From contig CM060731.1 in assembly GCA_030704615.1 (NCBI GenBank), forward strand, positions 87,110,001 to 87,174,000: DNA of 64,000 nucleotides. The letters run 5' to 3'. A program made the position numbers and the translations under genes. Below, one piece after another: positions 1 to 37,920 of the stretch; position 1 is the stretch's first letter, and every line of letters begins with the position of its first letter. The notes beneath the pieces were generated by a model. The model had not been told where the DNA came from and did no database searches. It worked only from the letters and a program-made list of their open reading frames with translations. This stretch comes from Takakia lepidozioides. Its lineage: Eukaryota; Plantae; Bryophyta.

Positions 1-2845
1 CAACGTTGCCGTGTATCCACGAATTGCGGAACACCTTCCTCGAAACGACGGCTTTGTGCGAGCAATTCTCCACTGTGATGCAGACACAGTCGTCTCCACA
101 ATGGCTTGGCCATACTGCATAACAGCGGGCGGAATGTGGGGCAAGGGAGCGGTGGGAATTTTTTGCACGAAATCCCCGGTTGAAGGCGACGGCGATCTGG
201 AATTTCTTGGGCTTCCACTGCTGGAAGACACATTGTGCGGCAACATGACGGGACCTCGAGGTGCTGTCCGAATGTTCCTGTCGGATCTCCAGGAATCCTC
301 TTCGCACCCGGGTTCCTCTTCAATCCTCCGCCTGACAGGGCGAGTCCGGACGTCCCCCTCTAGGTGTTCACCTCTGCGGTGCAGAGGCGTCCCTTTGATC
401 TTCTCTCGCAATGCTGTCGCCCATTTCACTGGATTCTTGGACCTCGAAGCTGTTCGTACCAACAATTCCTCCCTGTCCGGCCCAAAGCCCCATTGTTTGC
501 CGCTCAGGAACTTGTAGTACGTGGCTTGCTGCATGATTGCTCTGTCGATGTCCTCCGTTGTGGCCGTCACTACGTCCACCAGATGTGCGGCAGAAGACGC
601 TCGCCAGGAGGAGTGGACCGATTCTGCCATATTCGTGTTCGGCATGTCCGTGTCGGAATCCAAGCACCGCTCCTAGAAGGACACAAACAATGGTGAGGGA
701 CCAATCGAAATGTCCGTAACAGAAAGACAAATGAACGAAATTGACAGCAGCCTACCTCCCGCATGTACTGTCCGAACTGTCGATACCGAAAATGCCACCA
801 CCCCAACCAGCTGTGCAATGCTCCCAGATTGGTTGTCTCCACTGCACCTGACGTGTTCCACCAAGCCTCGATGATAGCAAACTTAACCTCCGCGTCATCA
901 AATGTGGGTGCATCCTTCCACGCCGTACAAAGGACACGGTGTTCAGCCTGGAATGAGCTAGCAACAAATTTGGTAGTGTAGTGGGATAGACTCTGCATCC
1001 AATGGAATCCACAGGATCTCTCTTTCCCCTCCATTGGAACATTGGGGTCCTCACCGTACACACGCCGCACCGCTGCCCAGTTGGCCTGAGCGTTGTCTGC
1101 CATGAATCCCCTGAAATTGGGCTCTGGCAATCCCGCCCTTGCCATCTGCTCGTTTATGCCCTCCCACAGATGCATCTCGGACTGTGTGTCCTCCCCTTTC
1201 ATCTCGCAGATTGCAATCGTCATGAGCCTCTTGGAGTGATAGTCATAAACATGCGCACCCATAGTCACCCACTGATGGTTTGTAATTCGCTTGATGTGAT
1301 CAAACATCACCCAAGCATTCGACAAGTTTCCAGTTGTCATGCGAGTGACCAAGTCGACTCCACTCCCAGGCCCACACGTCGACATTTTGAAAATGTAACA
1401 ACGATCGGATTCGCTGCCTTGCCCTGGAAACCTGCTACTTGGATGTAGTCATATCCAGTCATTCGTTTCACCTCCAGGATTGAGTACATGTCCGACCCCT
1501 GCCGAACTCCTGCTTGCAAGATACGATGTGATTCCGCACATTCGGACTACAAACGTGCGAGACGGACTCCAAGAGGTCACGCATCTCGTCTTCGGTCAAG
1601 GGCTCTCGGTCGGAACCATCTTCAGACATGATTTTGCCAAGAGCAATCTTGTGGGCTGCCTTCAGCTGAATCTGCTTTGGTCTGGCTCCGGGGCTCAATT
1701 TCACCTCCTCTTTTATGATGTCGTGTGCTTCCTGCACAGCCTCACGCATGTTGCCTCTCGCCAAGGGGTGGCAGTGGACCCCAACGTGTATGCAAGCTCT
1801 AGTCAAGTCCGGGAGCAAATGGATTACGTAATATTGCTTGGCTCTGCACATGGACATGCACGTCGGTGGTTCTTTGCAATGTGCACACTTGAAAGAACCC
1901 GCAGGAGCTTGGCTGGAGACAATGAATGGATGATGCGTTGTGCCAGTCCAATCCGTCTCGTTTCTCCGCCCTCCTTTGGAGAGAAAGTGGAAGCAGGTGG
2001 GATTGAGGCACCTCAGCTTCCCCGCACAGAGGACATATCGTACACGAACACCATCAGCAATTTTCGTGCTACTGGTCTTCGTCACACACCAGGGGTGTCC
2101 GTCATGCTTTCGATCCATGTCTGTTAACATCCCGGAGGCTTTCTTTGACGAAGAAACAGGTGGAAACTCGAAGATGACATTGCCATCGACTTCGGGAGGC
2201 AGAAAAGTTACCTTTCTGACTGGGAATTTGGCATAGTCGAGAGCAGCCAGCTCGGAGCGAGAACCATCGAGGTGATGTTGTCGTAGGAGCTGCACAATGG
2301 ACCGGGTTGGAGTTTGCTCGAGGGCACATGCGTAGCACCTACAGAGACGTCCATGCCGGATTTGAACGACCGTGTGGAGGACATGGGTACCTCAATGCAA
2401 TCATCTTCCTCGTCGGAAATGTCGAATACGTCCACACGAGAAGCTATGGAGGGTCTTGACGGTCCAGGTCGGGAATGATTATCGTTGCATACCTCTCTGT
2501 TGGCAGTGGCCGCCTTCGGTTTCCGGACTCCTTTGTGGATGGTGTGGGCAGCGACTGATTCGGAAAGGGAATGGGCATTCCCACAGCTCGGTACAGGATG
2601 GTGTCTGACGGGGGAACGTGCCATTCGATTCCGCAACCTCCGTCGTTACCTAGCACGACAATGGTCTCGTCAACCTGTCCAGGAACATCCTTCCTTTCTT
2701 CTTCCAAATAAACTGTGCCCGGTTTGAGCTTGAATTTGGAACAAAGGTAAGTTTCAGTCACTCTGCAAAGTCCTCCCTCGTTTGGGATCCAGGCTCTCCC
2801 AAGTTGCGGAGGACAGCAAACTATAGCGTAGGAATTCGGAGCCAT
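1..2845 (-). pseudogene. MULE transposase (GCM-like domain + DDE), frameshifted, 3' end off-window
   Basis: ORFs 1468-2295 and 570-1385 carry DRKHDGHPWC, VMFDHIKR, FMADNAQ and CGFH; after a GT-AG intron (673-755) the frame gives TNMAES. Colinear with the intact B transposase; frameshifts near 1440 and 2300-2650. Confidence 0.88.
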
Positions 2846-3271: not shown

Positions 3272-4145
3272 GGAAATGCCAACGCATTTCCATCCGAGTC
3301 GCACCTCCCAACATTCCAGAACGAATGTATTAGATTCGGAAATGCGGCACCGCATTTCCGTTCTGATGAAATATCCTGAAACCTCGGAACTGAAAATGCG
3401 GTACCGATTTCCGTCGGAGTCGCACCTTCCGACATTCCAAACGGAAATGCGGCGCCGCATTTCCGTTTTGTATGTGAGGGAGCGGTGGAACGAAATGCGG
3501 CACGCATTTCCGCCAGCGTCAGACGTTAATACTCTACAGAACGGAAATGCGGTACCGCATTTCCATTCTGACTGAAAATGTGCGCAACGGGAACAGAAAT
3601 GCGGCACCGCATTTCCGTCGAGTCGCACCTTCCGACATTCTAGAACGGAAATGCGGCGCCGCATTTCCGTTTTCTATATGGGGCCTGGAGCTGCTACGGA
3701 AATGTGTTGCCGCATTTCCATCCATGTGAGACCTTCAAACTTTCGGACCGGAAATGCGGCACCGCATTTCTGTCCAGGTGAGACCCTATACTTTCCCGAA
3801 CGGAAATGTGGCACGACATTTCCATTCATCAACTAACGTATGTGAAGGGGAACGAAATGCGGTACCGCATTTCCGTTCACATTGAAAATCATGAACCACG
3901 GGAACTGAAATGTTGTGCCTCATCCCGTCCGAATCGCACCTTTCGACATTCCAGAACGAAATGCGGCGCCGCATTTCCCTTTTGAATCTCATACATGGAG
4001 CTGTGGGACGAAATGCGGCACCGTATTTCCGTTCAACAACTAAGGTATGTGAAGGTGGAACGGAAATGCGGTGCCGCATTTTCTTCCAACAAGTACGGAT
4101 GTGTAGCTTCGTGATGGTACTTAACGGATGCGCCGCCGCATTCGC
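3272..4145. repeat. Phased array of the family A 22-bp palindrome GGAAATGCGG(C/T)(A/G)CCGCATTTCC
   Basis: 15 copies starting at 3338, 3392, 3443, 3491, 3543, 3595, 3647, 3698, 3750, 3802, 3853, 3906, 3957, 4009 and 4062, plus degenerate flanking copies. Spacers are about 30 bp and mostly different. Confidence 0.95.
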
Positions 4146-4760: not shown

Positions 4761-7700
4761 ATGCAGAACATGTTTGCATGCCTAACAGGAAAGGTGGACG
4801 TGCTGGAGGGATCGCAGGAATCCGAAGAGCCGCAGGAAGAGTCCGAGGAGCTAGCTGCAGCACGTACACCCACCCGATCCCCGAGCGCGGGTATTCCTGC
4901 CGGGCCTAGCCCTGTGCGATTCAAAGACGCGTCTTCGAAGGGCAAGTTCAAAGCCCCAGAGATCGACTCGCGTTCTTCGGTCATGGAGAATCGCCAGCAG
5001 GGGTCGGGCCCTTCTCCAGCAAAGTCGAAGAAGAAGCAGCCCGTCCCTCTACTGGCTTCTGAACCGGCTCAGGCCGATTCACCCCCCCCAACGCGAATGA
5101 AGCAGCAGGGTAGAAGACAGATTCAATTGCAGCAGACACCTTCACCTGCAAGGATGAGGAAGCAGAAGGCAATCAGGGCGACGGGCGAACAATCTCCCGC
5201 AAAACCGCTTCCACGAGCTGAAGCTCAGTTCCTGGAGGATTTCCCGCCTGCAGATGTTGGGGCCGACTCTGCTGCAGCGAAGGCAATGGGATCGACCGTT
5301 GATCTCGATTTGGTACCGGAGGAGGGTGCTGCCGCTCAACGTTCGCAGCAAGACCTCACCACCGATGAGCAAGCAGGCCCGGAGGAGGCCTCTGCAATGG
5401 CAGAATTGCCCGCAGACAGGCCCCAGAGTGCAGCTCCAGTTGAGGATGCTCCAGCTGCTCAGCCACTACCGGCACCTACAGACATGTCTCCGGAGGATTT
5501 CAAAAGTGCAGCGGATAAAATGTTGGAGGAGACACACAGTAGCATTGGCAGAGTTTCTGGGCAGCAGGGTATTCCAGCGGACTCTTCGAATCCCACTCTG
5601 TCGCATGGTCTCCCTTCCCATCGTCAGGCAGGCCCTTCCCGGAGATGTGGATAAGCTCAAGTTCGCATTTCGAGAAGGGTACCGTCTGGGATCGGCAGCG
5701 TTTTACGTTTCCATTGAGAATGAGGACGGCGAAACTCGTGGACCCACTGCCGATGAATTGTCAACGTGGGATACCCACTGGCACACTCGCAACCACGAAT
5801 TCGAGGCGACGCTGAAGGGTGATCCAGACTTCGGCCATATGTCGGGTAAAATGTTCTTTGTGTGGGACGGGAATCACCGACTTCTCGCCTGGTGGGAGTA
5901 CATCAAGCAGAACCATGCCAAGCACATTGGCTGGCATTACATGGTGGAGTGTGTCATCCTCAAGGTGAAGGCGGCAGACTCCTCCCTGCTCAAGAATGCC
6001 ATGGCGGACCTCAACTCGTAAGATACTCATACCCTCCTAGCACGTTCGAAATGCGGTGCCGCATTTCGGTTTCCATTCTGGTTTGTTTCCGTGCTTCCGT
6101 GTACTGAACTGGAGAGTGTGCCTTGCAGGGTCACTGAGAATGCGTACGTGCATACCCACATGGCACATATGCTGTACAGGGTGAGGAAAACTGGTCTCAC
6201 TGATCCGCAGATGTTTGCGGAAATGCTGGAGCCCGAGCTCATTCAGAAAGCCGTTGCAAAAACAGACCGGACATGGTATCGTCTCACTATGGATGGAATG
6301 GTGGAGGTGATATACGAAGTAAGTCGTCCCAATTTCCCTCTGCTCATCCTTCCCCAATTTTCAGTAATGTTTCCACATGAATCGAATGTAACGCTTCTGC
6401 ATGTTTTTGTTGGCAGTCAAACATCAAGCTGGATTTGGCCCATGCCAAACGCTTCTTCATGGAAAGTGAGGGGCAGGTCAAAACGTTGCAGTCATTGACT
6501 GAGCACTTGAAGGAAGCCGGTGTCAAGTCCAGAACCAAATACGTCAAAGCTTGTGAAGCTGGTGGCAATTGCAGATCCGGCACTTGGAAAGGACTTCATC
6601 CCCGAGATTGCAAAACACTATTCTCGGGCCATGCAGCCGACCATGCAATTGGAGAAACTGCATCACCTCTCAACGGCATGTGTGGAGGCGAAAGAGAAGG
6701 TGAGGTTTCAATGCACTGAAGTTCCTTCCTAGCAATAGCCACTCTCTTCCAGCTCCTGACATTGGATCGGAAATGGCAGACACGGTGGCTGTCGATCTGG
6801 AATGCATCCGAGAGCATAAGGACAATGTGGTCTTTTCCACTCGAAGTTTCCGACCCTGCAGTGGATGTGTGGCTCAACCGTATGACTTGGTGGTTCCAGG
6901 TAATTCAAGGTACTTCCCCAGATTTGCTTTTCTGAAATGAATTCCCTGAACTGCTACGTGACAATGCATTTGGGAATCGCAGGTAATGTCGAATGCGAAG
7001 GAGCAAGTCGTAATGCACACAAATTCGTTCGGCTTGTACGTCAAATGGGATGGAACACAGACATTGGAAGACTACGTGACACGTTTCAGATGTGCGTACA
7101 AGGACAACCTTTTCGCCAGAGAGCTAGACAGCAAGAAGGAGCGTGGAGTTTACACATCAGGAGGGAGCGGGGAAAGCTGCAATGCGAATTGTTTACAGGT
7201 GAAGCACAGCTGCCCTTGTATGCGAAGCCTGGTTACGAGGTTTGTCTCGGAAATGCGGCACCGCATTCGCATTTTATGTTTTCGGTGCACTCTGCGAGTA
7301 GGTTGGTCTCAACTTTTGCTCACGCATGCTGACTGCCTTGCAGGTATATGAAATACGTGCTCCTTCAGACAGGGGCCCCTGGCTCAAGAGCCCCGTTCTT
7401 CATGGCTTGGACCGTGGCGGGCCCAAGCTGTGTCTACACACCCGAGATGCAGAAACAATGGCATCCCGCGCATCTCGTTGGATGCCCGTGGTACCTGGAC
7501 ATGTCTGGCGGTATTGTTGACGAGTCTGAGAAAGATCTGCACGCCTTGGCAGAAGAGAAGAGAAAGGAAAGACGTGTCCCTGCTGGGCCAAAGTCGGCAA
7601 GGAATCTGCTGCTCTGGAAGAATCCAGAAAGGCAGCTGAGATGGCACAAAAGACGGTGGATGCAGCTGTGCAGGCCCAACAGAAGGGGTCGAAGAAGAGG

Positions 7701-9700
7701 ACTCGCCAGCAAGGAGCAGCTGTTGTGACACCCGCCAAAACGAAGAAGCAGAAACAGCCTGTTCAGGAAGAGGGTGAGGAAGAGGACTCCGATGGAGACT
7801 TTGCAACCAGCCCACCCCCCCAAACGCAGGCTGCCTCCCCTGTGCCCACCGTTGTCACGAGAGGCACGAGAACTGGCTCGGCAAAGAAGGCACTCTTCAA
7901 CCCCCCAGGGGGGCACCCTTTCGAGCCGGTGGAAAATGAAGAGGCCGAAAGTGGCTCCCGAAACAGTAGTCCAGTGTGTAAATGAGAGTTTCTTGGCGGC
8001 TTTGGATGGACGGGCAGCCAAGTTGGCATACATGAAGACCATGGAGGGTCTGAAGGGCAGAGCACTGAAGAAGGCGACTGCCGAAGAGCCTTCCGACACC
8101 CCAGGATTTCAGAATATGGTCTCGTTCTTTGAGAGGGTGTGTGCAGACAAGGATTGTAGGAGGGGCGGAAATGCCACGAGTGGTCTTGCGATATGATCAT
8201 CTTGGATATTCCGGACGGGAGCCTGTGGAAGGACTGCAAGCTTTGCCATCTTGGAACAGGTACTCGGAGGACTTTGGAAGAAAGGATTCGGGCTTGCCCG
8301 CATGGTGTTGGACGACAGAGGCTGTGTGGTTGTCCTGGCGAGCAGAGGAAAAAACACTCAGACAGGAATTGCGAAGTGGACCCGCAAGAGCGCCGTCCCG
8401 ATTCTGAAAAAGAAGTGGACGTGCATCAACACACTGGGCCTTCGGTCGGAAGGGAAGAAGGTGATTACGACACTGGCACTCGTCCATTCATTTGCTTGGG
8501 TGTTTTCAAATGCGGTGCCGCATTCGGTTTCTAATCGTTTTCCCCCTGTGTATGCAGACGAAGCAGTTCGATGCATACTGCTTTGTGAAGGAGAACTCCA
8601 CCTTTGCTTTCCGGAAGGAGGGAGGAAAGGTTGACCCGAACTGCGACCCACTCGATTACGACGTTCTGTTCAACAACGTTCCCAAGGAACTTCTCCCTCA
8701 TAGCCTCACTTCAACGGAACCCCTGCGGTACTCACGGACTCGGAGCCCTGCCTTCATTCAGACAATTTGGAGACATGCACAGACGTGGAGGGCACAGTGC
8801 TCGACCTCATCTGTGGGACAGGTATGCAGAATCTTGATCTATGCTGTTCTGCAAATTCTCGTTAGGATGTAGTTCGCAACATCTGAAGCGCCATGTGGTA
8901 ATGTGTGGATGGCATTGTAACGGTGCCTCAATGTGGGCTGGGCGGTTTTCCGACCGGCACCTCTTTGCCTACGAGGAGGATTCATCCGTGTGGGGATCCC
9001 ATCTGGAAGGGCTGCAACGGAATGTTAAGGCTCCGACAGAGCGGAAGTCTCCTCGGATTCGTCGGAGTCCGAGGAAGACACAGTGGACATTGATGCGGAG
9101 GAGAACCCGGAATACGAGTGAGTGCAAACATTGTAAGTTTGCAAGCCTTCTGGGTCATTTATGTCAAACGAATTTCCCGACTGTGGTTCTCATTAGTCTC
9201 GTTGATGATTGTCATGTGCAGGATTGCAGGGTCCGGGTCGAAACATGTAGGGCCTACACTTCCTGCCAGGAAGAATGTCCCGTTCTTTGCGAGGGCCGAC
9301 TTCATGACGAGCCGGTGAGGGACTACTCCCTTCCTAGTTATGCAGCTAAACTCGCAAATACAGCGATTAGAAGAAGTGAGAATCCCAGTAAAGTAGAGCA
9401 GATTTTGGAGAGGGCTAGGGAGGACAGAAGGATAAGGAAAGAGTTGGCAGCAGCTCAGACAGGTAGACGGGTACGAAAGTACATATGTGATTCAGCGGAT
9501 GAGAGCGACGCAGACAGGGAGGAAGACGACCCAACGGAGGTGAGATGGACAGTTCCGCAAGGGAAGATGGGATTTTCGAAAGCCTGGCCAACGAGCAGTC
9601 CGCTGGAGATGAGAAAGGCACTGAGGGGGTGGAGGCGGAGCAGGACAGTCTAGAACAGGATGAGGATTCGGATGATTTTCAGATTATAGAATTTAATGAA
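4761..9700 (+). CDS. Family A accessory gene: low-complexity N-terminus + ParB-like domain + beta-class N6A/N4C methyltransferase-like domain (multi-exon, frameshifted in this assembly)
   Basis: FFVWDGNHRLLAW (~5850-5895), MIILDIPDG (8193), YSRTRSPAFIQT...VLDLICGTG|ASMWAG..DRHLFAYEED (8730-8980). GT-AG introns e.g. 6018-6128, 6319-6416, 7199-7343, 8461-8557. Start and end approximate. Confidence 0.8.
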
Positions 9701-9821: not shown

Positions 9822-10582
9822 AGAAATGGGGCACCGCATTTCCAAAATTTTGGCAACTCTAAGAACCTCTTTTGGACATGCGACACCCGCATTTCCAAAC
9901 AGGGGAGGGACTAAATTTCCATTTCAATGTTGGCATAGTAAAAAGTAATCGGCCGATTGGAAATGCGGTGCCGCATTTCCAAAATTTCCTTTGTCCACAC
10001 GCCAGTTTTGGCCTCTCCCGCTCATTGCATGGATGCCACCACGCTTACAGAGGTCGAACAAGGAGGTCGAACAAGGGGTCGAGATGGCGGAATTGAAAAT
10101 GCGTTGCCAGCATTTCATATTGGGGATGGTCGTTGTTCTAACTGCAGGCCCATCACCAAAAATTGGCACCGCATTCCATTGTAAAAAAAAAGTCGATGAC
10201 GGACATGGAAATGCGGCGCCGCATTTCCAGAACGGACATCGCAATTTGTCCATTTGCAGACCCTCTCCGGAAATGCGGTAACGCATTCCATCGCGCTGGT
10301 CGGAAATTCACACTTTTCGAAGTGTTGGACGGAAATGCGGCACCGCATTCCCTTGTCCAAAAAGAAGTTTCCATTGCCAAGCTGGAAATGCGTCGCCGCA
10401 TTTGCAATGCCAACCTCGTTGTCTGTCCATTTATAGACCCGTGTTGGTATTTTGTGTACCTGGACGGAAATGATGCACCGCATTTCCTTGTCCCACATGG
10501 AATGCGGTGGCGCATTTCATTGTCCCACATGGAAATGCGGTGGCGCATTCATTGTCCACAGGAAATGCGGTGCCGCATTTCA
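9822..10582. repeat. Distal array of the family A palindrome
   Basis: About 11 copies of GGAAATGCGGNNCCGCATTTC variants, e.g. at 9959, 10207, 10331 and 10561. Confidence 0.9.
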
Positions 10583-10837: not shown

Positions 10838-11445
10838 TCACCAAGTCGACGGAACTTCGATACCCCTCAAAACAAGCTCATCACTGCTGCGGCACCTCGA
10901 GGTAAACTGCAATTGGTCGTTCTGCTGCCCTTGCTGGAGCCGACGACAATGTCATGTCCATCAATGATACCACCATCATAGATTGACAAGGTCACTGTGG
11001 GCCTCATGTGCCCGGTGATTCGTCTTTGCAACTCAGCCGAATGTCTCCATACACTGGAAAGCGGAGTGATCTGCACGTATATAGTTTTCCCCGTGCCGTC
11101 CTCCCTGTCCACTGGCAGCAGTTCCAGCGCCAAAGCGAGGCCGTGCGTGATCTGTCCGGCATCCCTTTCCAGCTTGGTATATCGAGGTCAACAATTGTCA
11201 GGACCCACGGACCGCATTGACCCTCGCCCTCACCTCGCTCAAAGCGGTAATAGCCCTCCAGATACTCCATTGCGCGCAAAGACTCTTGCTTGATTCCAGC
11301 AGCGTCTGTGAAAACAAAGAGCCAGACAATGATGTCTCCTGATTCTAGTTTGAACATAGCATATCGTGGCCATGATAAGGGCAGTCGGCTGGATTTCGGC
11401 GGCACGGCATCCTTGAAAAAGAGTAGCGGAGTACGCTCAATGATA
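10838..11445 (-). pseudogene. Family A small cargo gene 1 (unknown domain), frameshifted copy
   Basis: Pieces in ORFs 11004-11405 and 10867-11133 match the intact 204-aa ORF at 25492-26106. Confidence 0.7.
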
Positions 11446-11667
11446 GCAGCTCCCGGATGGAGGAGGAGCAGCGCGGTGGCTGGAAAAAGTTCAAGCTAAC
11501 GCTGCAATTCGTCACAAACACTCCAGGGCACATTTAAATTCCCCCCCTATAGGATCCTGGACCGATGAAGATTGGCTACTTCATGAATGTAGCCGTTTCA
11601 GTTTCCTACCCTGCCATGCAAACTATGGGCACTCACTGCCAGGTGGGCCGATAGCCACTGGACACGA

Positions 11668-11731
11668 CGAAGTCCATCCCCTCTTCGATGTAAATGCGGC
11701 GCCGAATTTCCATCCGGGGGGATGGACTTCG
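11668..11731. promoter_or_regulatory. 64-bp imperfect palindrome between the divergent cargo genes
   Basis: CGAAGTCCATCCCC...GGGGATGGACTTCG arms enclosing AAATGCGGCGCCGAATTT; conserved in copy A2 at ~26328-26391. Regulatory role is inferred. Confidence 0.55.
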
Positions 11732-11794
11732 GTGGCAGATCTCAAACTATAACTTCTTGATGAGAAAGATGTATGGGTTCATCCACCTCCGTCG

Positions 11795-12505
11795 GTGGGT
11801 ACGTGGGACCCAGATGCTCCATTATTGGAGGCCGGACTGCTCTTCCGCTTCGCATCATTTCCAAAATCTAAGGGCTTCGTAGCTGTCTGCAAGGTCATTG
11901 TCATCTGCATCCAAGTCGTCCTCAGGTCCTCCTTTGCAAGGATGCCGTGCTTCCGGAACCGGGACGACTGCCCATTTGGAGGCATCGATTATGCAATGTA
12001 TTCGGCCACATCGGGAGACATTGTTATCTGGTACACATATTACACAGAAGATACTGGTTCGATTGTGGAAACATTGGTGGCTTTTGAGTATATCGTAGGC
12101 CACTATGCCTTTGAGCGGGGTGACGATCTTGGTCTGAGGAGTCCGTGGCTCCTGCGCATCCTCGATTCCGATTTTCCTAGCTACGACGGTCACCCATGCA
12201 GAAGAAGGCGCACTGCTATGTTGTTGCGGTGGAACTGCTGCCACTGGACGTGGGTGGACTCCATCGGAGAGACCTATTCTCCTCAAGGAGTGCGCTCCTC
12301 TTCTCCATTGTATGGGGACATTCGCATTGGTGTGGACGACGAAAACGTGAAGATTTCCATATTCGATGGTGGTATGATTGAAGGGCAGGACATTGTGGTG
12401 AACATCACTAGGGGCGGTACAACGGCTGCAATCGACTTTACATGGAGGAGCCCCATGACTCATGAGCTAGTTCTGAGAGCAGTCGAAGTCCCATTGACAA
12501 CGTGA
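11795..12505 (+). CDS. Family A small cargo gene 2 (unknown domain; paralog of cargo gene 1)
   Basis: Open 236-aa frame (likely ATG at 11942). Shares SGDIxxW, FERG, PW, RTAxLxRWNCCxWT, YGDIR, DGGMIxGxDIVV and ELVLRAxEVP with the opposite-strand ORF. Confidence 0.7.
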   Translation: MGTWDPDAPLLEAGLLFRFASFPKSKGFVAVCKVIVICIQVVLRSSFARMPCFRNRDDCPFGGIDYAMYSATSGDIVIWYTYYTEDTGSIVETLVAFEYIVGHYAFERGDDLGLRSPWLLRILDSDFPSYDGHPCRRRRTAMLLRWNCCHWTWVDSIGETYSPQGVRSSSPLYGDIRIGVDDENVKISIFDGGMIEGQDIVVNITRGGTTAAIDFTWRSPMTHELVLRAVEVPLTT

Positions 12506-12834: not shown

Positions 12835-12961
12835 CGTGGCACCCTAAACCCTATTCCCGCGGACACTCATTTCCGGAAAATAGTGCTGCTCATGTTTTTT
12901 TCCACACTTACGACTCTGCTCATGGCTCATGCCGCTCATGGCTCATGAAATAGCAGCCCCC
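12835..12961. repeat. Family A terminal inverted repeat with subterminal GCTCATG repeats
   Basis: GCTCATGGCTCATGCCGCTCATGGCTCATGAAATAGCAGCCCCC; near-identical copy at ~47645-47773. Confidence 0.85.
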
Positions 12962-22521: not shown

Positions 22522-24223
22522 CATGCCGCGCATCTCATTGGATGCCCGTGGTACCTGGACATGTCTGGCGGAATTTTTGACGAGTCTGAGAAAGATCTGC
22601 ACGCGAAAGCAGAAGAGAAGAGAAAGGAAAGACGTGTCCCTGCTGGGCCAGAGTCGGCAAAGGAAGCTGCTGCTCTGGAACAATCCAGAAAGGCAGCTGA
22701 GATGGCACAAAAGACGGTGGATGCAGCTGTGCAGGCTCAACAGAAGGGGTCGAAGAAGAGGACTCGCCAGTTAGGAGCAGCAGTCGTGACACCCAAGAAA
22801 ACGAAGAAGCAGAAACAGATAGAGCAGGAAGGGGGTGACGAAGAGGACTTCGATGGAGACTTTACAACCAGCCCACCCCCCGAAACGCAGCCGAAATCCC
22901 CTGTGCCCACCGTTGTCACGAGAGGGACGAGAACAGGCTCGGCAAAGAAGGCACTCTTCAACTATTACGACATTGGCACTTGTCCTTTCATTTTCTTAGG
23001 TGTTTTGAAATGCGGTGCCGCATTCAATTTCTAATCGTTCCCCACTGTGTATGCAGATGAAGCAGTTCCATGCATACTGCTTTGTGAAGGAGAACTCCAC
23101 CTTTGCTTTCCGGAAGGAGGGATTGTTGGTTGACCTGAACTGCGACCCCATCAATTACGACGTCCTGTTCAACAATGTTCCCACGGAACTTCTCCCTCAT
23201 AGCCTCACTTCAACGGAACCCCTGCGGTATTCACGGACTCGGAGCCCTGCCTTCATTCAGACAATTATGGAGACATGCACTGACGTGGAGGGCACAGTGC
23301 TCGACCTCATCTGTGGGACAGGTATGCAGAATCTTGCTCTATGCTATTCTGCAAATTCTCCTTATGCTTTAATTCGCAACATCTGAAGGGCCATGCTATA
23401 ATGTGTGGATGGCATTGTAACAGGTGCCTCAATGTGGGCTGGGCGGTTTTCCGACCGGCACCTCTTTGCCTACGAGGAGGACACATCCGTCTGGGGATCC
23501 CATCTGAAAGGGCTGCAACGGAATGTGAAGGCTCCCATCAAAGCCAAAGACTCCTCGGATTCGTCGGAGTCGGAGGAAGAGATAGTGGACATTGATGCCG
23601 AGGAGAACCCGGAATACGAGTGAGTGCAAACATTGTAAGTTTGCAAAGCCTTCAGGGTGATTTTTTGTCAAATGCATTTCCGGACTGTGGTTCTCATTGG
23701 TCTCGTTGGTGATTGTTATGTGCAGGATTCCAGGATCCGGGTCAAAACATGTAGGGCCTACACTTCCTACCAGGAAGAATGTCCCGTTCTTTGCGAGGGC
23801 CGACTTCATGACGAGCCCGGTGAAGGACTACTCCTTCCTAGTTATGCAGCTAAACTCGCAAATACAGCGATTAGACGATGTGAGAATCCCAGTAAAGTAG
23901 AGCAGATTTTGGAGAGGGCTAGGGAGGACAGAAGGATAAGGAAAGAGTTGGCAACAGCTGAGACAGGTAGACGGGTGCGAAAGTTCATATGTGATTCAGC
24001 GGATGAGAGCGATGCAGACAGGGAGGACAACGACCCAACGGAGGTGAGATGGTCAGTTCCGCAAGGGGAAGATGGGATTTTCGAAAGCCTGGCCAACGAG
24101 CAGTCCGCTGGACATGGTGCCGCATATCCATTTTTGACACGGCAGTTTTGCCGATTGCCAGCTCCTTCCATGGAGGTAAATGGAAATGCCACCCCGCATG
24201 CGGAGGTCGACCATGGCGGACAT

Positions 24224-25203
24224 GGAAATGCGGTGCCGCATTTCCATTTTGGAGATGGACGTTTTTCCAACTGCAGACCCATCGACGGAAATGCGGCTCC
24301 GCATTTCATGATGCTAGACGGGAATGCGGCACCGCATTCCATTGTCCAATAAGAAATTTTGATGACGTACATGGAAATGCGGCGCCGCATTTCCAGAACG
24401 GACATCGTTGTTTGTCCAATTCCAGACCCTTTGACGGAAATGCGGCACCGCATTCCATCGTGCTGGATGGAAAGGCGGCACCGCATTACATTGTCCAATA
24501 AGAACTTTCGATTGCCAAACATGGAAATGCGGCGCCGCATTTCCAAAACAGACATCGTTGTTTGTCCAATTCCAGACCCGTGTGGGCATTCCGTCTTGTT
24601 GGACGGAAATGCGGCACCGCATTCCATTGTCCAATACGAAATTTTGATGACGGACATGGAAATGCGGTGCCGCATTTCCAGAATGGACATCGTTGTTTGT
24701 CCAATTCCAGACCCTTGGACGGAAATGCGGCACCGCATTCCATCGTGCTAGACGGAAATGTGGCACCGCATTCAATGGTGCTGGTCGGAAATGCGGCACC
24801 GCATTCCATTGTCCAATAAGAACTTTCGATTGCCAAACATGGAAATGCGTCGCCGCATTTCCAAGGCCCACATTTGTCCAATTCCAGACCCGTGTGGGTA
24901 TTCCGTCTAGCTGGACGGAAATGCGGCACCGCATTCCATTGTCCAATACAAAATTTTGATGACAGACATGGAAATGCGGTGCCACATTTTCAGAATGGAC
25001 ATCGTTGTTTGTCCAATTCCAGACCCTTCGACGGAAATGCGGCACCGCATTCCATTGTCCAATACGAAATTTTGATGACAGACATGGAAATGCGGTGCCA
25101 CATTTTCAGAATGGACATCGTTGTTTGTCCAATTCCAGACCCTTCGACGGAAATGCGGCACCGCATTCCATTGTGCTCTCCGGAAATGCGGTGCCGCATT
25201 CCA
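24224..25203. repeat. Expanded family A palindrome array with higher-order tandem units
   Basis: About 19 palindrome copies; recurring spacers AGAA(C/T)GGACATCGTTGTTTGTCCAATTCCAGACCC and ATTGTCCAATA. Confidence 0.93.
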
Positions 25204-25491
25204 TTGTCCATTTCCGAGCTTCGGCATGTACATGTTTCATTTTACTCATACATGGATTTCCTTCACCTCAGGACTCTGATATCGCTGACTCTGGTATATT
25301 CATATGGACAGACACATTGTAGAAATGAGACCACAAATTGTAAACAGTGGGCCAATTACGACAGTTCTTGAACACAATGAAACACAAGCACACAGAAGTG
25401 AGGTACGATGGGTTGTTTTATTGATCGAACACGGTGTCTCACATTTAGCAACTCCAGACAAATCTAAGCCCTTCCTCCTTCTACATGGGCG

Positions 25492-26106
25492 TCACCAAGT
25501 CGACGGAACTTCGATAGCCCTCAAAACAAGCTCATTACTGATGCAGCACCTCGAGGTAAACTGCAATGCGGTCGTTCTGGTGCCCTTGGTGGAGCTGACG
25601 ACAATGTCATGCCCATTAATCATACCACCATCATACATTGACAAGGTCACTGTGGGCCTCATGTGCCCGTGCGATTCGTCTTCGCAACTCAGCCGAATGT
25701 CTCCATACACTGGAAGAGCGGAGTGAACTCCACGAATATAGTTTTCCCCGGTGCCGTCCTCCCTGGTCCACTGGCAGCAGTTCCAGCGCCAAAGCGAGGC
25801 CGTGCGTGATCTATCCGGCATCCCATTCCACCTTGGTATATCGAGGTCAACAATTTTCAGGACCCACGGACCGCATTGACCCTCGCCCTCACCTCGCTCA
25901 AAGCGGTAATAGCCCTCCAAATACTCCATTGCGCGCAAAGACTCCCGCTTGATTCCAGAAGCGTCTGTGAAAATAGAGAGCCAGACAATGATGTCTCCTG
26001 ATTCTGGTTTGAACATAACATAATCGTGGCCATGATAAGGGCAGTCAGCAGGATTTTGGCGGCACGGCATCCTTGAAAAAGAGTAGCGGAGTACGCTCAA
26101 TGACAA
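25492..26106 (-). CDS. Family A small cargo gene 1, intact frame
   Basis: 204-aa open frame paralogous to 11795-12505. Confidence 0.7.
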   Translation of the reverse strand: MSLSVLRYSFSRMPCRQNPADCPYHGHDYVMFKPESGDIIVWLSIFTDASGIKRESLRAMEYLEGYYRFERGEGEGQCGPWVLKIVDLDIPRWNGMPDRSRTASLWRWNCCQWTREDGTGENYIRGVHSALPVYGDIRLSCEDESHGHMRPTVTLSMYDGGMINGHDIVVSSTKGTRTTALQFTSRCCISNELVLRAIEVPSTW

Positions 26107-26912
26107 CAGCTCCCGGATGGAGGAGGCAGCAGCACGGTGGCTGGAAGAAGTTCAAGCAAACGCTGCAATTCCTCACAAACACTCCAGGGCACATTTAAAT
26201 TTCCCCCCTACAGGAACCTGCACGGATGAAGATTGGCTGCTCTATGAATGTAGCCGTTTCAATTTCCTTCCCTGCCATGCAAACTATGGGCAGTAAGTGC
26301 CAGGTGGGCCTATAGCCACTCGAGCCGACGAAGTCCATCCCCCCTTCGATGTAAATGCGGCGCCAAATTTCCATCCGGGAGATGGACTTCGGTGGTAGAT
26401 TTCAAACTATACCCCGTGGATGAGAAAGAGGTATCGGTTCATCCACCGCTAGTGTGATGAACACGTTACACGATGATTGGTGGGTACGTGGGACCAAGAT
26501 GCTCCATTATTGGAGCCCGCACTGCTCTTCCCCTTCTCATCATTTCAAAAAATCTAAGGGCTTCGTTGCTGTCCGCAAGGTCATTGGGCATCAAAGACGT
26601 CCTCAGGTCCTCCTTTGCAAGGATGTCGTGCTTCCGGAACCGGGACGACTGCCCTTATGGAGGCTTCGATTATGCAATGTATTCGGCCACATCGGGAGAC
26701 ATCGTTATCTGGTACACAGTTTACACAGAAGATACTGGTTCGAATGTGGAAACATTGTCCGCTTTTGAGTATATCCCAGGCCACTACGCCTTCAAGCGGG
26801 GTGACGATCTTGGTCTGAGGAGTCCGTGGCTCCTGCGCATCCTTGATTTCGATTTTCCCAGCTACGATGGGCACCCATGCAGAAGAATGCGCACTGCTAT
26901 GCTGTTGCGGTG

Positions 26913-29672: not shown

Positions 29673-29901
29673 CCCTGACCGGGGGCTGCTATTTCATGAG
29701 CGGCATGAGCATGAGCGGAAAAAAAAAAAGCATGAGCAGACCATTGTGAGTCCACGGAAATAGGGTTAGGAGGCACGGAAATAGGGTCATGTGAAGTTGG
29801 AATGTGGCACCAGTGGACTTGAAATGCAACATTTTATTGCAAATTTTGTGGCAAGCCACGTCTATACAAGTGTGTTCTAACTGTCATAGCCGGAATGGGC
29901 A

Positions 29902-32900
29902 CTACTCTCCTACACCCTCCGAGGAACTTGCCCCACCTTCTTCCTCATCCCCCTCATCCCCCTCATCCTCCGAGCTCTGTGATGCATCAGTTCCACTATG
30001 CCTCTCAAAAATCCCGTCCTCTCCTTGGGGGACTGTCCACCTCACCTCCTGGGAATCTTTTGCGTCTTCTCCCCCACTTTCCTCAGCAGAATCCAACACA
30101 AATCTACGAGCTCGACGGGCTCTAATAGCTGCTGCCTCCTCCCTCATCTTCATTTTCTTGAGGCTTGCCTCGTCTAAAATCTGCTGTACACGACTACGTT
30201 CGGAACACCTCCTAATGGACACCGAAGCAAGCCGGGCAGCATAAGTAGGAAGGATGTACTCCCTTTCTGGACTAGGCATGAAATCCCCCCTGGCAAAAAA
30301 AAGGCACGTTCCTCCTGCCCATGAACTCCGGTGTAGACGTCCCTCCGGCAGTACTTGGCATCCTACAGTAAGAACAAATCCACTTGAAGAATGTCAATAC
30401 CAGCACAACCAGAAAGGGTTTTCAATGAAATAAGAGAGCGGAGGGAGGTGCCTCACAAAATCTGGAGGCAACTTACAATGCCACCACTCACTCGTAAACC
30501 GGGGGCTCCTCGGCCTCGATCCCAACTTCCTCCCCCTGCTCCTTCTCGGATTTTTCCTCATCCTCCGAGGATGCCTCTTCCTCTTCGGCAGACGTTCAGC
30601 CGCTGCAAGTTCCGAGTTGTGGAGGGCAGTATCTGGCTCGAAGGCGAACACATGCCTGTCGGACAACGTCCCTGCCCACATTGAAGCACCTGAGGAACAA
30701 AGCGGGCGGTTAATAGCTTGCGGCATGCAATTGCAATGGGGCCAGGGGACAAACTGAGCACGTGAAGGCTTACCCGTGCCGCATGTGAGGTCCAGAATCC
30801 GCCCTTGGACATCCGAGCACGTCTCCATGAGGGTTTGGATGAAAGCAGGGCTCCGGGTCCGGCTGTACCGCCACGGTTTGCCTGTCTTTGTGTCCTTCGG
30901 CATACTAGAGTGGGGCACATAGTTGTAGAGGACATCGTAGGTTACAGGGTCCACAGCGGCATCAACAAGACGACCGTCGTTGCGGAATTTGAACGTAGAC
31001 CCTCTCTTCACAAAGCAATATGCCTCAAACACCAATGTCTGCACATCCAACAAAGAAGGGATCAATTCCAGGGTCTACTTAACATACACCACAATATGAA
31101 GTGAATGCAATAGATTGATAACTTACACTTTGGCCCTCTGTTCGCAACCCCTGCGTACTGATGCAGAACCATTTTCTGAGGAGGACCGGGGTGACACTTT
31201 TCGGTGTCCACCTTGCCACCGCATTCTCTGTGGTCTTCCCTCTCGTGGCAAGGACAACCACACATCCACCATCATCCAGAAGCATCCCCGCCAGCCCAAA
31301 CCCGGCTTTCCAGTAGTCCTCAGTAAACCTGTTCCAGGTGGGCACACCATCCAGGCCCTCCAGCAGCTCCCCATCTGGAATGTCGAGGAGAATCATGTCG
31401 CAAGCTCTCTCCACCTCAACCCCCCCCGAGTGCTCTTGCAATTCGTGCTCACAGCCGTGAAGAATTCCATCATGGCTTCAAAACCAGGGGTGTCTTTAGG
31501 CTCTGTACCGGCAGCCCTCTTCTTGGCTTTCCCCTTCTGCTCCGCCAGAGACTTGTTGTGTGCCACCTTCTTCGCCCTGGCAGCGAGAGCGTCAAGGAAG
31601 CTCTCATTGACGCATTGGATGATGGTTGGAGGTTCTAGCTTTGGCCTGTGCGTAAACGTCACCGCCGAATACCGCCGTGTAGGCTCGCCCTCAAATGCCA
31701 ACTTCTTGGCAGAGCCAGTCCCACTCCGAACTGACTTGGGAACCCGGCGACCGGTGACTGGGTAGGAGCAACAGCAGTCGCAGGACCTTGAACAAAATCG
31801 GCGTCGGAGTCACTCTCTTGGGTCCCCTCCTGCGCCTCCTCCGATGCCCCGATGGTTTTCTTCTTTTTGGGTGTTACTGAAGTCACCTGTTTCCTTGTCC
31901 TTTTCCTTTGACCTTTACTCTTCTCATGCAATTTCTCCTGAATTCCTGCCTGAGCAAGCTCTGCCGCTTTCCTGGAGTTCGCAAGCGCTTTTGCCTCTTT
32001 TGCACCCAACGGAGGCAGCGGAGCCCGGTTTCGTCGGAATTCAGCATCCAGCTTCAATTGAAACTCGGATGGGTCGAGTGAGCCGGGCGGAAGGTCCACA
32101 TACCAAGGGCAATCACGCAAATGTTCCAGATGCCACTCCTTCACAATATCGTCAGTGTACATGGAGTCAGCCCCAGGGTTCCTCCATGCCAGGAAGAATG
32201 GTGGCTCGAAAGACAGATGACCTTTCTCCAAAAGCGAGAACTTACAGTACCTGCATTCATGAAAAACACAATGAGGTCCGAAAATGGCTAAGTCTCTGAA
32301 CGGCAATAGGGCCTACAACTGGAATATGGCGCCGAATTTCCACTTCAGGGCCACCCAGTCTAGGGACTTAGCCCGAAAATGGCTAAGTCCCTCGACGGCA
32401 ATAGGGCCTAGAACTGGAAAACGGCGCCGAATTTCCAGTTCCGGGCCAGCCAGTCTAGGGACTTAGCCCGAAAATGGCTAAGTCCCTGGACGGCAATAGG
32501 GCCTAGAACTGGAAAACGGCGCCGAATTTCCAGTTCCGGGCCAGCCACACTAGGGACTTAGGCCGAAAATGGCTAACTCCCTGAACGGCAATAGGGCCTA
32601 AAACTGGAATATGGCGCCGAATTTCCACTTCAGGGCCAGCCAGTCTAGGGACTTGGGCCGAAAATGGGTAAGTCCCTGAACGGCAATAGGGCCTGGAACT
32701 GGAAAATGGCGCCGAATTTCCAGTTCCGGGCCAGCCAGTCTAGGGACTTAGCCATTTTCGGAGCCCTGACTGGAAATTCGGCGCCATTTTCCCTAACACC
32801 ACTTGAGGCCTCTAACATCCTGCAATGCCAGGACTTGAAAGAAAGGCAGCGCGTATGTACCTGTACAGAAGGCGCATTGCTGATTTGTCCGCGTTCGGCT

Positions 32901-35900: not shown

Positions 35901-35942
35901 GCAAGACACTGGAATCTCCTGCTGGAGCTTCAGTTTGGCCAT
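29902..35942 (-). CDS. Family B accessory gene: ParB-like + beta-class amino-methyltransferase-like, multi-exon
   Basis: FYVWDGNHRLLAW (ORF 34073-35494), CDMILLDIPDG...PTWN...LLDDGGCVVV (31079-31441), RSPAFIQTLMETCSDVQGRILDLTCGTG|ASMWAG..DRHVFAFE (30640-30870). Apparent frameshifts near 31425 and 31750; start approximate. Confidence 0.82.
32277..32790. repeat. 95-bp tandem repeat inside intron 32251-32860, carrying the family B palindrome
   Basis: GGGACTT recurs at 32363, 32458, 32553, 32648 and 32743. Each unit has GGCGCCGAATTTCC and a GGGACTTAGCC/GGCTAAGTCCC hairpin. Confidence 0.93.
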
Positions 35943-36254
35943 GCGAGAGATTGGCCGTCGTCCGTAGTACAGAGCTTTCAACTTCCGCCGCGGTCTGGAT
36001 GTGAGGTCTCTCTCAGGAGAGCCACGCCCTTCAGGCGGCATAAGTCCCAGCCAAAAAGATCTCTTTTTTTGGGGTACATGCCTGGAATACCATGTTAAGC
36101 CAAGTTTAGAATGAGATTTAGGGTACGTGTCCAGGAAGCCATGCGTCGCCAGCCCAAATAATAACCGACGGCCGTCGACATTTATTGCCCAACTGCGCAA
36201 TTAAATGTCGGATGAAGCCCTCCATGTCGGATGAAAATCGACGTAAACAGTCCC

Positions 36255-37920
36255 GGAATTTCCAACGTAGAGGTAATTCGGAGCGCTGCACGATGGAATT
36301 CCGGCGCCGGATTTCCATCCTGCAGGTAATTCGGAGCGCAGCAGGATGGAAATCCGGCGCCGAATTTCCATCCGCGGAGGAAGGGCGGCGGTGGAAATTT
36401 CCCTCATGCAGGTAATTCGGAAGCGCGCGGATGGAAATCCGGCGCCGAATTTCCATCCGCGGAGGTAGGGCGGCGGTGGAAATTTCCCTCATGCAGGTAA
36501 TTCGGAAGCGCGCGGATGGAAATCCGGCGCCGAATTTCCATCCGCGGAGGTAGGGCGGCGGTGGAAATTTCCCTCATGCAGGTAATTCGGAAGCGCGCGG
36601 ATGGAAATCCGGCGCCGAATTTCCATCCGCGGAGGTAGGGCGGCGGTGGAAATTTCCCTCATGCAGGTAATTCGGAAGCGCGCGGATGGAAATCCGGCAC
36701 CGAATTTCCATTCGCGCAGGTAGGGCGGTGCGCCGAATTTCCCTCCTGCAGGTAATTCGGATCCCGGATGAATGGAAATTCGGCGCCGAATTTCCATCCA
36801 GCAGGTAAGTCGAATCCCGGATGAATGGAAATTCGGCGCCGAATTTCCATCCAGCAGGTAAGTCGAATCCCGCATAAATGGAAATTCGGCGCCGAATTTC
36901 CATCCTGCAGGTAATTCGAATCGGTGCCAAATGGATATTCGGCGCCGAATTTGCATTCGCCATGTATTTCTGAGCGTGGAATTACCTTCGTGCAGGTAAT
37001 TCCCAGATGAGAATTACCTTTGTGCAGGTAATTTCCAGATGAGAATTACCTTCGTGCAGGTAATTGTGGACGAAGAATTCACATCGATTGGAATTACCTG
37101 GAGGAAGGTAATTCTCATCTGGAAATTACCTGCACAAAGGTAATTCTCATCTGGGAATTACCTGCACGAAGGTAATTCCACGCTCAGAAATACATGTCGA
37201 ATGGAAATTCGGCGCCGAATATCCATACGGCACCCATCCGACTTACCTGCTAGATGGAAATTCGGCGCCGAATCTCCATCCACCCGAGATTCCACTTACC
37301 TGCTGGACGGAAATTCGGCGCCGAATCTCCATCCATCCGGGATTCCACTTACCTGCTGGATGGAAATTCGGCGCCGAATTTCCATCCATCCGGGATTCCA
37401 CTTACCTGGAGGATGCAAATTCGGCGCCGTTTTCCATCTGTGGAAGTTTTTATGTCGGCCAGTTTTCGGTCTGACCCCCCGACAAGACTTCCTTTGGGGG
37501 GGCCCGGATGGAAATTCGGCGCCGAATCTCCGTCCATGGGATGTTCTCTGTCGCACACTCGCCGGCCTCTGCGCCCGAGGCGACTTCATCCGGGCGTCCC
37601 CTGTTCGATATTCGGTGCCGAATTTCCGTCCGGGGGTTGAAATGTGACGGCCAACTGCAGGCCACTCCCCCCTCCCCGACTGCATCCGAACCGCCCCGGA
37701 TGGAAATTCGGCGCCGTTTTTCCATCTGGGGATGTTTTTATGCCGTCCAGTTTTCGGCCTGACCCCCCGACACGACTCCCTTTGGGGGGCCCGGATGGAA
37801 ATTCGGCGCCGAATCTCCATCCAGGGGATGTTCTCTGTCGCACACACTCCGGCCTCTGCGCCCGAGGCGACTTCATCCGGGCTTCCTCTGTTGGATATTG
37901 GGTGCCGAATTTCCATTCGG
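36255..37920. repeat. Family B central array of GGAAATTCGGCGCCGAATTTCC with 85-bp tandem units and a long inverted repeat
   Basis: Units start at 36429, 36514, 36599 and 36684; perfect 93-bp arms at 36961-37053 and 37104-37196. Confidence 0.95.

What the first reader, a model, noticed from the sequence alone, without database searches (positions are those of the whole stretch)
3338..4083. CRISPR-like, helically phased array: 22-bp palindromes every ~52 bp with variable spacers
Fifteen repeats span 724 bp start to start (mean 51.7 bp, about five helical turns; range 48-54) between the divergent genes. Spacer length is conserved while spacer sequence is largely not, although some spacers are related (GTCGCACCTTCCGACATTC recurs). 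Inference: selection for same-face protein binding, or alternatively processing of a hairpin-spacer transcript into small RNAs.
Basis: partly seen in the sequence, partly recalled or inferred. Interest (0 to 1): 0.8.

Follow-up and report, generated by a model that had tools for sequence, protein, structure and literature searches.

The report
Phased binding-site array in moss-type transposon
This repeat array is not a CRISPR: it lies between two genes of a large plant DNA transposon, related transposons carry their own version of the same palindrome at whole-helical-turn spacings, and it is likely a landing pad for the transposon's own predicted ParB-like/methyltransferase protein, which would keep the element switched on.

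Summary
Observation confirmed: 15 copies of a 22-bp palindrome, 724 bp start to start, about 52 bp apart. It is not CRISPR-like: spacers fall into five recurring classes in a higher-order tandem pattern, the host is a eukaryote, likely a moss, and no cas gene or protospacer was found. The array sits between the divergent genes of a MuDRF-like DNA transposon: a GCM-fold DDE/SWIM transposase and a gene for a ParB/Srx-fold protein with an N6/N4-methyltransferase-like domain. A sister element in the window is complete (12.9 kb, TIRs, 8-bp TSD). Seven arm variants share a CGGYRCCG-type core. Four window elements each carry their own variant in the same intron. 105 of 116 spacings lie within 0.2 turn of a multiple of 10.5 bp. 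Best reading (inferred): clustered sites for the ParB-like protein, working like the VANC anti-silencing motifs of Arabidopsis VANDALs; the transposase as binder is the main rival. No binding or expression data exist here.

The parts
3338..4083 (.). Array of 15 palindromes (family A arm GGAAATG + core CGGYRCCG), about 52-53 bp period, higher-order units of spacer classes b-a-c-d/e
19..2845 (-). Transposase gene of element A: GCM-like DNA-binding domain, DDE core; runs off the window's left end; frames broken at several places where public contigs show indels
   Evidence: fold from the sister copy
4761..9653 (+). Multi-exon accessory gene: ParB/Srx-like domain (about 5584-6018), helical middle, N6/N4-methyltransferase-like 3' exons (about 8190-9030). 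Exon limits approximate
6047..6068 (.). Single A-type palindrome just after the ParB-domain exon (likely intron)
7249..7270 (.). Single A-type palindrome in the intron that also holds the B, D and E variants in those elements
8506..8527 (.). Single A-type palindrome in a likely intron between methyltransferase exons
9822..10582 (.). Second A-type array downstream of the accessory gene (spacings 30-33, 53, 62, 82 bp)
11004..12505 (.). Two related, divergent ORFs of unknown family (11004-11405 minus, 11795-12505 plus) with one palindrome at 11690 between them
12888..12961 (.). Right terminal inverted repeat of element A with short subterminal repeats (GCTCATG)
22522..26912 (+). Partial second copy of family A with a 19-copy 3' array at 24224-25203
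29681..42580 (.). Complete sister element B, 12.9 kb: TIRs, 8-bp target duplication, ParB-methyltransferase gene (minus), palindrome array 36295-37914 (arm GGAAATT), transposase 38220-41812 (plus)
52290..58036 (+). Element D: 116-bp array with arm CAGTGTG (15 copies), ParB-methyltransferase gene from about 54319, intron copies at 56094 and 56191, TIR-like end at 58036; no transposase detected
61411..64000 (+). Element E fragment: TIR-like start, five palindromes with arm AACCTTG (61558-61994), then middle exons of the accessory gene

Best explanation
The array is the largest cluster of a 22-bp palindrome inside a MuDRF-like plant DNA transposon, and is likely a set of binding sites for the element's own predicted ParB-fold/methyltransferase-like protein, which would load there to keep the element's promoters and chromatin active, as VANC proteins do for VANDAL transposons. 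Shown: the array lies between the divergent transposase and accessory genes; the same palindrome recurs in introns, downstream of the accessory gene and between a second divergent gene pair; each related element family has its own 7-bp arm around a shared CGGYRCCG-type core; spacings are whole helical turns; the array grew by tandem and higher-order duplication. Predicted from folds and profiles: ParB/Srx fold and N6/N4-methyltransferase domain in the accessory protein, GCM fold in the transposase. Inferred, untested: that a protein binds the palindrome with two-fold symmetry; that it is the accessory protein; that in-phase spacing gives cooperative same-face occupancy; that the outcome is anti-silencing or activation.
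For: Position and gene pair conserved in window elements A and B and in loci L019/L020 and L080. Family-specific variant in the same intron in 4 of 4 window elements that cover it (A 7249, B 32320-32772, D 56094/56191, E 61558-61994): dispersed sites kilobases from the arrays change arms together with the arrays, which slippage alone does not explain. Phasing: 105 of 116 spacings up to 160 bp within 0.2 turn of a multiple of 10.5 bp (40% expected), best period 10.5; one modal spacing per family (6 values) p=0.002; E adds 96, 75, 95, 149. Co-occurrence: of 31 loci of 5 kb or more, 5 hold a ParB-like hit and all 5 have clustered palindromes (4, L080); of 26 without, 2 have clusters, both within 1 kb of a contig end, and the L059 cluster aligns to the 3' flank of the L045 ParB gene. 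Arm type follows ParB-domain identity: A-B 65% (arms 6 of 7 alike), L019-L045 73% and L039 50/44% (same arm), D and L080 30-46% (other arms). ParB/Srx fold: the top 8 of 50 listed VIA rows are ParB/Srx-type proteins (PadC Z 7.9, rmsd 5.3, 116 aligned; KorB Z 7.8, rmsd 2.3, 94 aligned). Homologue P0157 hits PF01555 at E 4.9e-7; window exons align to its methyltransferase half (E 7e-8 for B; weaker for A). Precedents: VANC21 binds motifs in introns, intergenic and terminal non-coding regions, amplified as tandem repeats (PMC5735166, passages); F sopC is 12 x 43 bp with a 16-bp inverted repeat bound by SopB (PMC3177203, abstract).
Against: No binding, expression or methylation data. The fold search did not establish a helix-turn-helix or other DNA-binding domain in the accessory protein; Foldseek gave no row at E<=0.001 and the tool warns that Z under 8 can be a common arrangement. 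The model is of homologue P0157 (45-48% identical in the ParB domain), not of the window protein, and its methyltransferase part was not folded (pLDDT<50). The catalytic motif reads DIPD in A, B and D and DTPF in P0157 against the canonical [DNSH]PP[YFW] (PMC4738411, passages), so methyl transfer may be lost. Arm type also tracks the GCM domain loosely (A-B 71%; L019-L036 56% with different arms), so the transposase is not excluded. B has a cluster beyond the transposase near its right end (41969-42331), as a transposase site might. Many loci are redundant assemblies, decayed, or lack enough flank, so co-occurrence rests on about four independent elements. Spacing classes are not independent (85=53+32, 116=53+63) and 4 spacings above 160 bp (188, 195, 229, 270) were dropped before counting.
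Confidence: 0.55

Rival explanations
1. The palindromes are internal binding sites for the transposase's GCM-like domain, used for autoregulation of the two promoters or to help build the transpososome.
For: The transposase has a sequence-specific DNA-binding fold (top hit GCM-DNA complex 1ODH: Foldseek E 7.9e-4; VIA Z 6.0, rmsd 4.7, 134 aligned). The A half-site contains ATGCGG, which resembles the GCM site as I recall it (from memory, no call). A 2026 preprint reports that a MULE transposase activates its cognate copies (10.64898/2026.08.24.746577, abstract and passages). Muta1 transposase binds a palindromic terminal motif and subterminal repeats (PMC5499845, passages).
Against: The ends already carry a different subterminal repeat (GCTCATG) shared by A and B. 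Arrays flank and interrupt the accessory gene, and in L019 lie 3 kb or more from the transposase. Transposase loci with 6.8-10 kb upstream and no ParB hit (L022, L048, L054, L055-L058) show no clusters. L036 and L019 transposases are 69% identical in the DDE core yet have different arms. The ATGCGG likeness is absent from the B, S, L080 and L036 arms.
Confidence: 0.2
2. The array is a parS-like centromere: the ParB-like protein condenses or tethers excised or replicating element DNA to improve its inheritance or end pairing, rather than to alter silencing.
For: Layout matches F sopC (PMC3177203, abstract); ParB-type fold; ESM features link the domain to DUF3723 (score 0.96, 187 of 256 features), a conserved Starship cargo gene of unknown function (PMC9156397, passages).
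Against: No ParA-like ATPase was seen among the ORFs scanned. Sites lie at promoters and in introns, the VANC pattern. The motif GNHR differs from the GERRxRA motif of CTP clamps (recalled), and sulfiredoxin and SerK score nearly as well as ParB.
Confidence: 0.1
3. The array is kept by a host factor or by DNA shape (nucleosome rotational positioning), or is a neutral satellite.
For: It clearly grew by tandem and higher-order duplication; 10.5-bp multiples are also what nucleosome positioning gives (general knowledge).
Against: Palindromes 83-84% against spacers at background; arms differ by family and change together at dispersed sites; the D and E arms lack A-tracts.
Confidence: 0.1
4. The array is transcribed and cut at hairpins into about 52-nt guide or small RNAs, CRISPR-like.
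For: The strand folds stably (z -14.3 against 20 shuffles), as any palindrome array would; three weak miRNA-family scores below gathering thresholds.
Against: Arm changes uncompensated versus compensated: A 50/4, B 19/1, D 9/0, S 33/1. Spacers are internal duplicates; blastn-short found no spacer match at E<0.03 outside the array in the window or 80 loci and none in 50,697 phage records. Spacing of 33 to 128 bp in relatives, and single intronic copies, do not fit a fixed-length product.
Confidence: 0.05

Closest known systems
VANDAL MULEs and VANC anti-silencing proteins of Arabidopsis (PMC5735166; passages seen)
   Same: Mutator-type element with an accessory gene; family-specific motifs in intergenic, intronic and terminal non-coding regions, amplified as tandem repeats.
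   Different: VANC motifs are 8-9 bp and not reported there as palindromes; here a 22-bp palindrome with helical phasing. The accessory protein here is ParB-fold plus methyltransferase-like; homology to VANC was not tested directly and no VANC-type Pfam hit was seen.
MuDRF branch of MuDR with a GCM domain (PMC3164196; passages and a supplementary legend seen)
   Same: GCM-like DNA-binding domain plus DDE transposase.
   Different: Reported from basidiomycetes and Naegleria with one protein and 9-bp TSD; here a land-plant host, two to four genes, an 8-bp TSD (one case) and internal arrays.
F plasmid sopC/SopB, a ParB-parS system (PMC3177203; abstract seen)
   Same: Tandem units of about a whole number of helical turns, each with a palindrome, beside a ParB-fold gene.
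   Different: Bacterial, with a ParA partner and near-identical units; here eukaryotic, no ParA seen, divergent spacers, methyltransferase-like fusion.
DUF3723 of fungal Starships (PMC9156397; passages seen)
   Same: ESM features of the ParB-like region match DUF3723-type clusters best; both are conserved accessory genes of large eukaryotic transposons.
   Different: No Pfam PF12520 hit among the 25 listed families for 103 members; Starships use a tyrosine recombinase. The link is a lead only.
CRISPR array
   Same: Palindromic repeats with spacers of near-constant length.
   Different: Spacers are recurring duplicates, no cas genes, eukaryotic transposon context, repeat also single and intronic.

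Membership tests
CRISPR array | Unique, acquired spacers | tested here: not met
   Five recurring classes, within-class identity 72%, higher-order order
CRISPR array | cas genes nearby | tested here: not met
   No Cas family among 30 ORFs against Pfam or 9 proteins against PADLOC; the flanking genes are a transposase and a ParB-like gene
CRISPR array | Protospacers in mobile elements | tested here: inconclusive
   No match in 50,697 phage records; the host genome was not available
CRISPR array | Processed repeat-spacer RNAs | not testable with these tools
   No RNA holder listed
MULE/MuDR superfamily (MuDRF branch) | DDE triad with (C/D)xxH 15-45 residues after the second D and W before the E | tested here: met
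   MFD, MAD, CGFH 28 residues after the second D, W-rich stretch, then NMAES; criteria from PMC5499845 passages; residue roles assigned by motif
MULE/MuDR superfamily (MuDRF branch) | N-terminal WRKY-GCM1 fold and C-terminal SWIM | tested here: met
   GCM top hit in both fold searches; SWIM E 0.0038, 17.2 bits, below the 19.6 cut-off
MULE/MuDR superfamily (MuDRF branch) | TIRs and 8-10 bp target duplication | tested here: met
   Element B 29681-42580 with an 8-bp duplication; the TIR is short (about 20 bp plus subterminal repeats), not >100 bp. One insertion only; A's left end is outside the window
MULE/MuDR superfamily (MuDRF branch) | Profile match to Mutator transposases | tested here: inconclusive
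   1 of 80 members hits PF00872 (E 8e-4); the window proteins hit none
ParB-parS partition system | ParB/Srx nucleotide-binding fold | tested here: met
   Model of homologue P0157; top 8 VIA rows are ParB/Srx-type, Z 5.7-7.9
ParB-parS partition system | HTH domain that reads the palindrome | tested here: inconclusive
   A helical region follows the domain but gave no clear match
ParB-parS partition system | ParA ATPase partner | tested here: not met
   None among the scanned ORFs of elements A and B; the 236-aa ORF is unassigned
ParB-parS partition system | CTP-dependent clamp loading and sliding | not testable with these tools
   Needs biochemistry
VANDAL/VANC anti-silencing system | Family-specific motif in tandem in non-coding regions (intergenic, intron, terminal) | tested here: met
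VANDAL/VANC anti-silencing system | VANC-family protein | tested here: inconclusive
   The accessory protein is ParB-like plus PF01555; no direct comparison with VANC was run
VANDAL/VANC anti-silencing system | [quoted passage not shown] | not testable with these tools
   No methylome. CpG obs/exp is 0.82-0.83 in A and B against 0.40-0.49 in three neighbouring repeats but 0.80 in a fourth; confounded by age
N6A/N4C DNA methyltransferase (PF01555) | Catalytic [DNSH]PP[YFW] motif | tested here: not met
   DIPD in A, B, D; DTPF in P0157
N6A/N4C DNA methyltransferase (PF01555) | SAM-binding motif and profile match | tested here: met
   P0157 30.4 bits against a cut-off of 26.7; DLxCGTG-type motif in A and B aligned to it

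The most novel reading that the evidence does not exclude
Bryophyte MuDRF-like transposons carry a eukaryotic ParB-parS-like device: a nucleotide-gated ParB clamp loads at phased, family-specific palindromes, spreads along the element and uses its amino-methyltransferase-like domain to write or read a mark that shields the element from host silencing; DUF3723 of fungal Starships is the same device.
Probability: 0.2. Interest if true: 0.9.

Novelty: new variant of a known kind. Interest (0 to 1): 0.66.

Why it matters
If right, a second, independently built anti-silencing or self-activation system exists in Mutator-type transposons, using a protein fold otherwise known from bacterial chromosome partition. 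At least seven natural arm variants with matched proteins make specificity and co-evolution directly testable, could give programmable sequence-specific chromatin tools, and suggest a function for DUF3723, a core Starship gene of unknown role. My searches found no paper holding both DUF3723 and ParB, and no listed title describing this moss element (listings only; Repbase was not searchable, so the family may be deposited there).

Tried and rejected
No whole genome is held, so copy number and further target duplications could not be counted. No RNA holder listed; contigs of one guessed-RNA run cover 16 of 30 bins and do not cover the array: no inference drawn. Rfam: 5 weak matches, none near its gathering score. 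Exact palindrome: 0 matches in viral contigs; 3 isolated single sites in prokaryotic genome contigs, taken as chance and not examined further. PDB sequence searches for the GCM-like, ParB-like and DDE parts gave nothing significant. Homodimer prediction of P0157 residues 200-690: no verdict. The Atlas could not read the window's ParB exon or P0002. My first phasing script missed most copies through a pattern error and was replaced. The idea that 26913-47037 is one clean nested insertion was dropped: no target duplication at the junctions. The idea that the half-site is simply a GCM site was weakened because other families lack it. Supplements of the cited papers were not opened; MuDRF alignments (PMC3164196 Fig. 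S2) and the supplement of PMC4738411 could bear on novelty.

Full report
Observation. The region 3338-4083 holds 15 copies of a 22-bp palindrome, 724 bp from first to last start, 47.5-53.5 bp centre to centre. Palindromes are 83-84% identical to each other. Spacers are 43% identical between classes (shuffled null 46%) and 72% within five classes that I assigned by eye; the order is b-a-c-d, b-a-c-d-d-e, b-a-c-e, and identity peaks at lags 4, 6 and 10. The array therefore grew by tandem and higher-order duplication while the palindrome alone was held. Contigs of public DNA runs show one or two extra bases at six places in the array, which would bring most spacings to about 53 bp; the window may carry small deletions or assembly errors.

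Host and context. The window is eukaryotic: spliced genes, Ty3/Gypsy and LINE pieces. The one full-length named homologue of the accessory protein is from the moss Ceratodon purpureus (48% identical over the domain), so a moss or other bryophyte is likely; I did not identify the record. Contigs of run X1 (94,243 laid) cover all 30 bins of 1-13200 with many variants, which shows a multi-copy family but gives no copy number.

The element. Left of the array, on the minus strand, is a transposase; right of it, on the plus strand, a multi-exon accessory gene. A sister element B lies complete at 29681-42580 with short TIRs, subterminal repeats and an 8-bp target duplication and has the same divergent pair with its own array between. 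Family A's right TIR ends at 12961 and occurs again at 47773 with another flank. The transposase has the D, D, CxxH, W and E pattern given for MULEs in PMC5499845 (passages) and a weak SWIM hit; 975 cluster representatives match it at E<=0.001. Its N-terminal domain (copy B, 69% identical to A) folds with pLDDT 93.5 and matches the GCM domain first in both searches (Foldseek E 7.9e-4; VIA Z 6.0, rmsd 4.7, 134 aligned, WRKY domains close behind). GCM-bearing MuDR elements are known as MuDRF from fungi and Naegleria (PMC3164196, passages); PMC1702500 (section 8 and passages) describes WRKY-GCM1, DDE, SWIM as the usual MULE layout.

The accessory protein. Homologue P0157 (1147 aa) hits PF01555 N6_N4_Mtase above cut-off and type II methyltransferase models. 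Window exons align to that half (B: 28% over 109 residues, E 7e-8; A copy 2: E 7e-4; A: E 0.046). The SAM-binding motif is kept; the catalytic motif is DIPD or DTPF rather than [DNSH]PP[YFW] (PMC4738411 passages), so activity is open. The N-terminal domain of P0157 folds well (blocks 221-380 at pLDDT 74-98; whole model 53). The top 8 of 50 VIA rows are ParB/Srx-type proteins (PadC, KorB, sulfiredoxin, SerK, a ParB-N domain, SbnI; Z 5.7-7.9); Foldseek ranks Noc and ParB first without reaching E 0.001. No HTH was established. ESM features place the region nearest DUF3723 clusters (0.96), a conserved Starship cargo gene of unknown function (PMC9156397, passages); Pfam did not list that family for 103 members, so this is a lead.

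The palindrome across families. Seven arm types surround a CGGYRCCG-type core: A GGAAATG, B GGAAATT, D CAGTGTG, E AACCTTG (window), S CAACTTT in L019/L020, L045, L059, L039, and two decayed types in L080 and L036; in the AT-rich loci the core is eroded by transitions, and reading it as the same core is my inference. In L080 the array lies, as here, between the divergent genes (8 copies, mostly 61-64 bp apart). In L019, L045 and L059 arrays at 50-51 bp lie downstream of the accessory gene, like 9822-10582 in A. In A, B, D and E the family's own variant stands in the intron before the same exon. Of 116 spacings up to 160 bp in six families, 105 are within 0.2 turn of a multiple of 10.5 bp; the best period is 10.5; with one modal value per family p=0.002. 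Four longer spacings were dropped, spacings within an array are copies of each other, and some classes are sums of others, so the six-value test is the fair one.

Which molecule reads it. RNA hairpins: arm changes are mostly uncompensated (A 50 against 4, B 19/1, D 9/0, S 33/1), spacing is variable between arrays, and single copies exist; symmetric change between families fits a two-fold protein as well as a hairpin. CRISPR features are not met. Accessory protein against transposase: of 80 loci fetched by transposase similarity, 31 are 5 kb or longer; the 5 with a ParB-like hit all have clusters, and 24 of the 26 without have none, the two exceptions lying at contig ends. Arm type follows ParB-domain identity. 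The ends have a separate subterminal repeat that suits the transposase. Against this, the loci are redundant and decayed, GCM-domain identity also tracks arm type loosely, and B has a cluster near its transposase end. I put the accessory protein as binder at about 0.65 (regulatory 0.55, partition-like 0.10) and the transposase at 0.2.

How it likely works. Inferred: a two-fold protein unit reads the two arms; whole-turn spacing puts successive units on one face for cooperative occupancy or looping; clusters at the shared promoter, in introns and between the second gene pair hold the element open against host methylation. This is the pattern shown for VANC21, which binds motifs in introns, intergenic and terminal non-coding regions that accumulate by tandem duplication and co-evolve with the protein (PMC5735166, passages). 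A 2026 preprint reports the same logic for Spm TnpA and a MULE transposase (10.64898/2026.08.24.746577, abstract and passages; no occurrence of ParB, moss or palindrome in its text). The geometry recalls F sopC (PMC3177203, abstract). The Marchantia 4mC preprint (10.1101/2021.02.12.428880, passages) concerns host enzymes and does not mention ParB. CpG depletion is weaker in A and B than in three of four neighbours, which age alone could explain.

Novelty and verdict. The parts have precedents (MuDRF transposase, VANC-type motif arrays, ParB-parS), but I found no description of a plant DNA transposon with a ParB-fold/methyltransferase-like gene and phased family-specific palindromes in ten library searches (listings and abstract starts), with Repbase and subscription journals unsearched. 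An unreviewed note of this scan on another piece of this genome (e1-10609243) reads such palindromes as ParB-like binding sites and names VANC; my ParB reading was written before that look-up and the VANC search was sent in the same turn as it, and it is not independent evidence. Verdict: real feature, not CRISPR, new variant of a known kind; interest 0.66.

Noticed in passing
window 36256-37958: Element B's intergenic array has large dyad symmetry (36772-37437 inverted, 68% identity) around a block of 32-bp repeats of a second motif.
   Followed up: partly
window 11004-12505 and 25492-26928: Two related divergent ORFs (about 236 aa) with no Pfam match lie between the 3' array and the TIR of family A; not detected in element B or in fetched loci of 4 kb or more.
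   Followed up: partly
window 14505-16313: Ty3/Gypsy element with a C5 cytosine methyltransferase domain (PF00145, E 3.6e-13), inserted right at element A's right end; other notes of this scan cover this family.
   Followed up: no
window 43457-46870: A more distant GCM-DDE-SWIM transposase (45-48% identical in the core) with no palindrome cluster or TIR found near it.
   Followed up: partly
window 1-13200: Frame breaks in element A's genes coincide with one-base indels carried by many public contigs, so the family probably has open copies.
   Followed up: partly
L045:4645-5554: ParB-like gene and a 5'-truncated transposase abut, with the intergenic region and its array missing, while the downstream 51-bp array of 9 copies remains.
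   Followed up: partly
window 26913-47037: A partial family A copy stops at 26912 and matching sequence resumes at 47038, but no target duplication was found at the junctions.
   Followed up: partly
window 61124-61145: A further TIR-like right end of an unassigned element just before element E.
   Followed up: no
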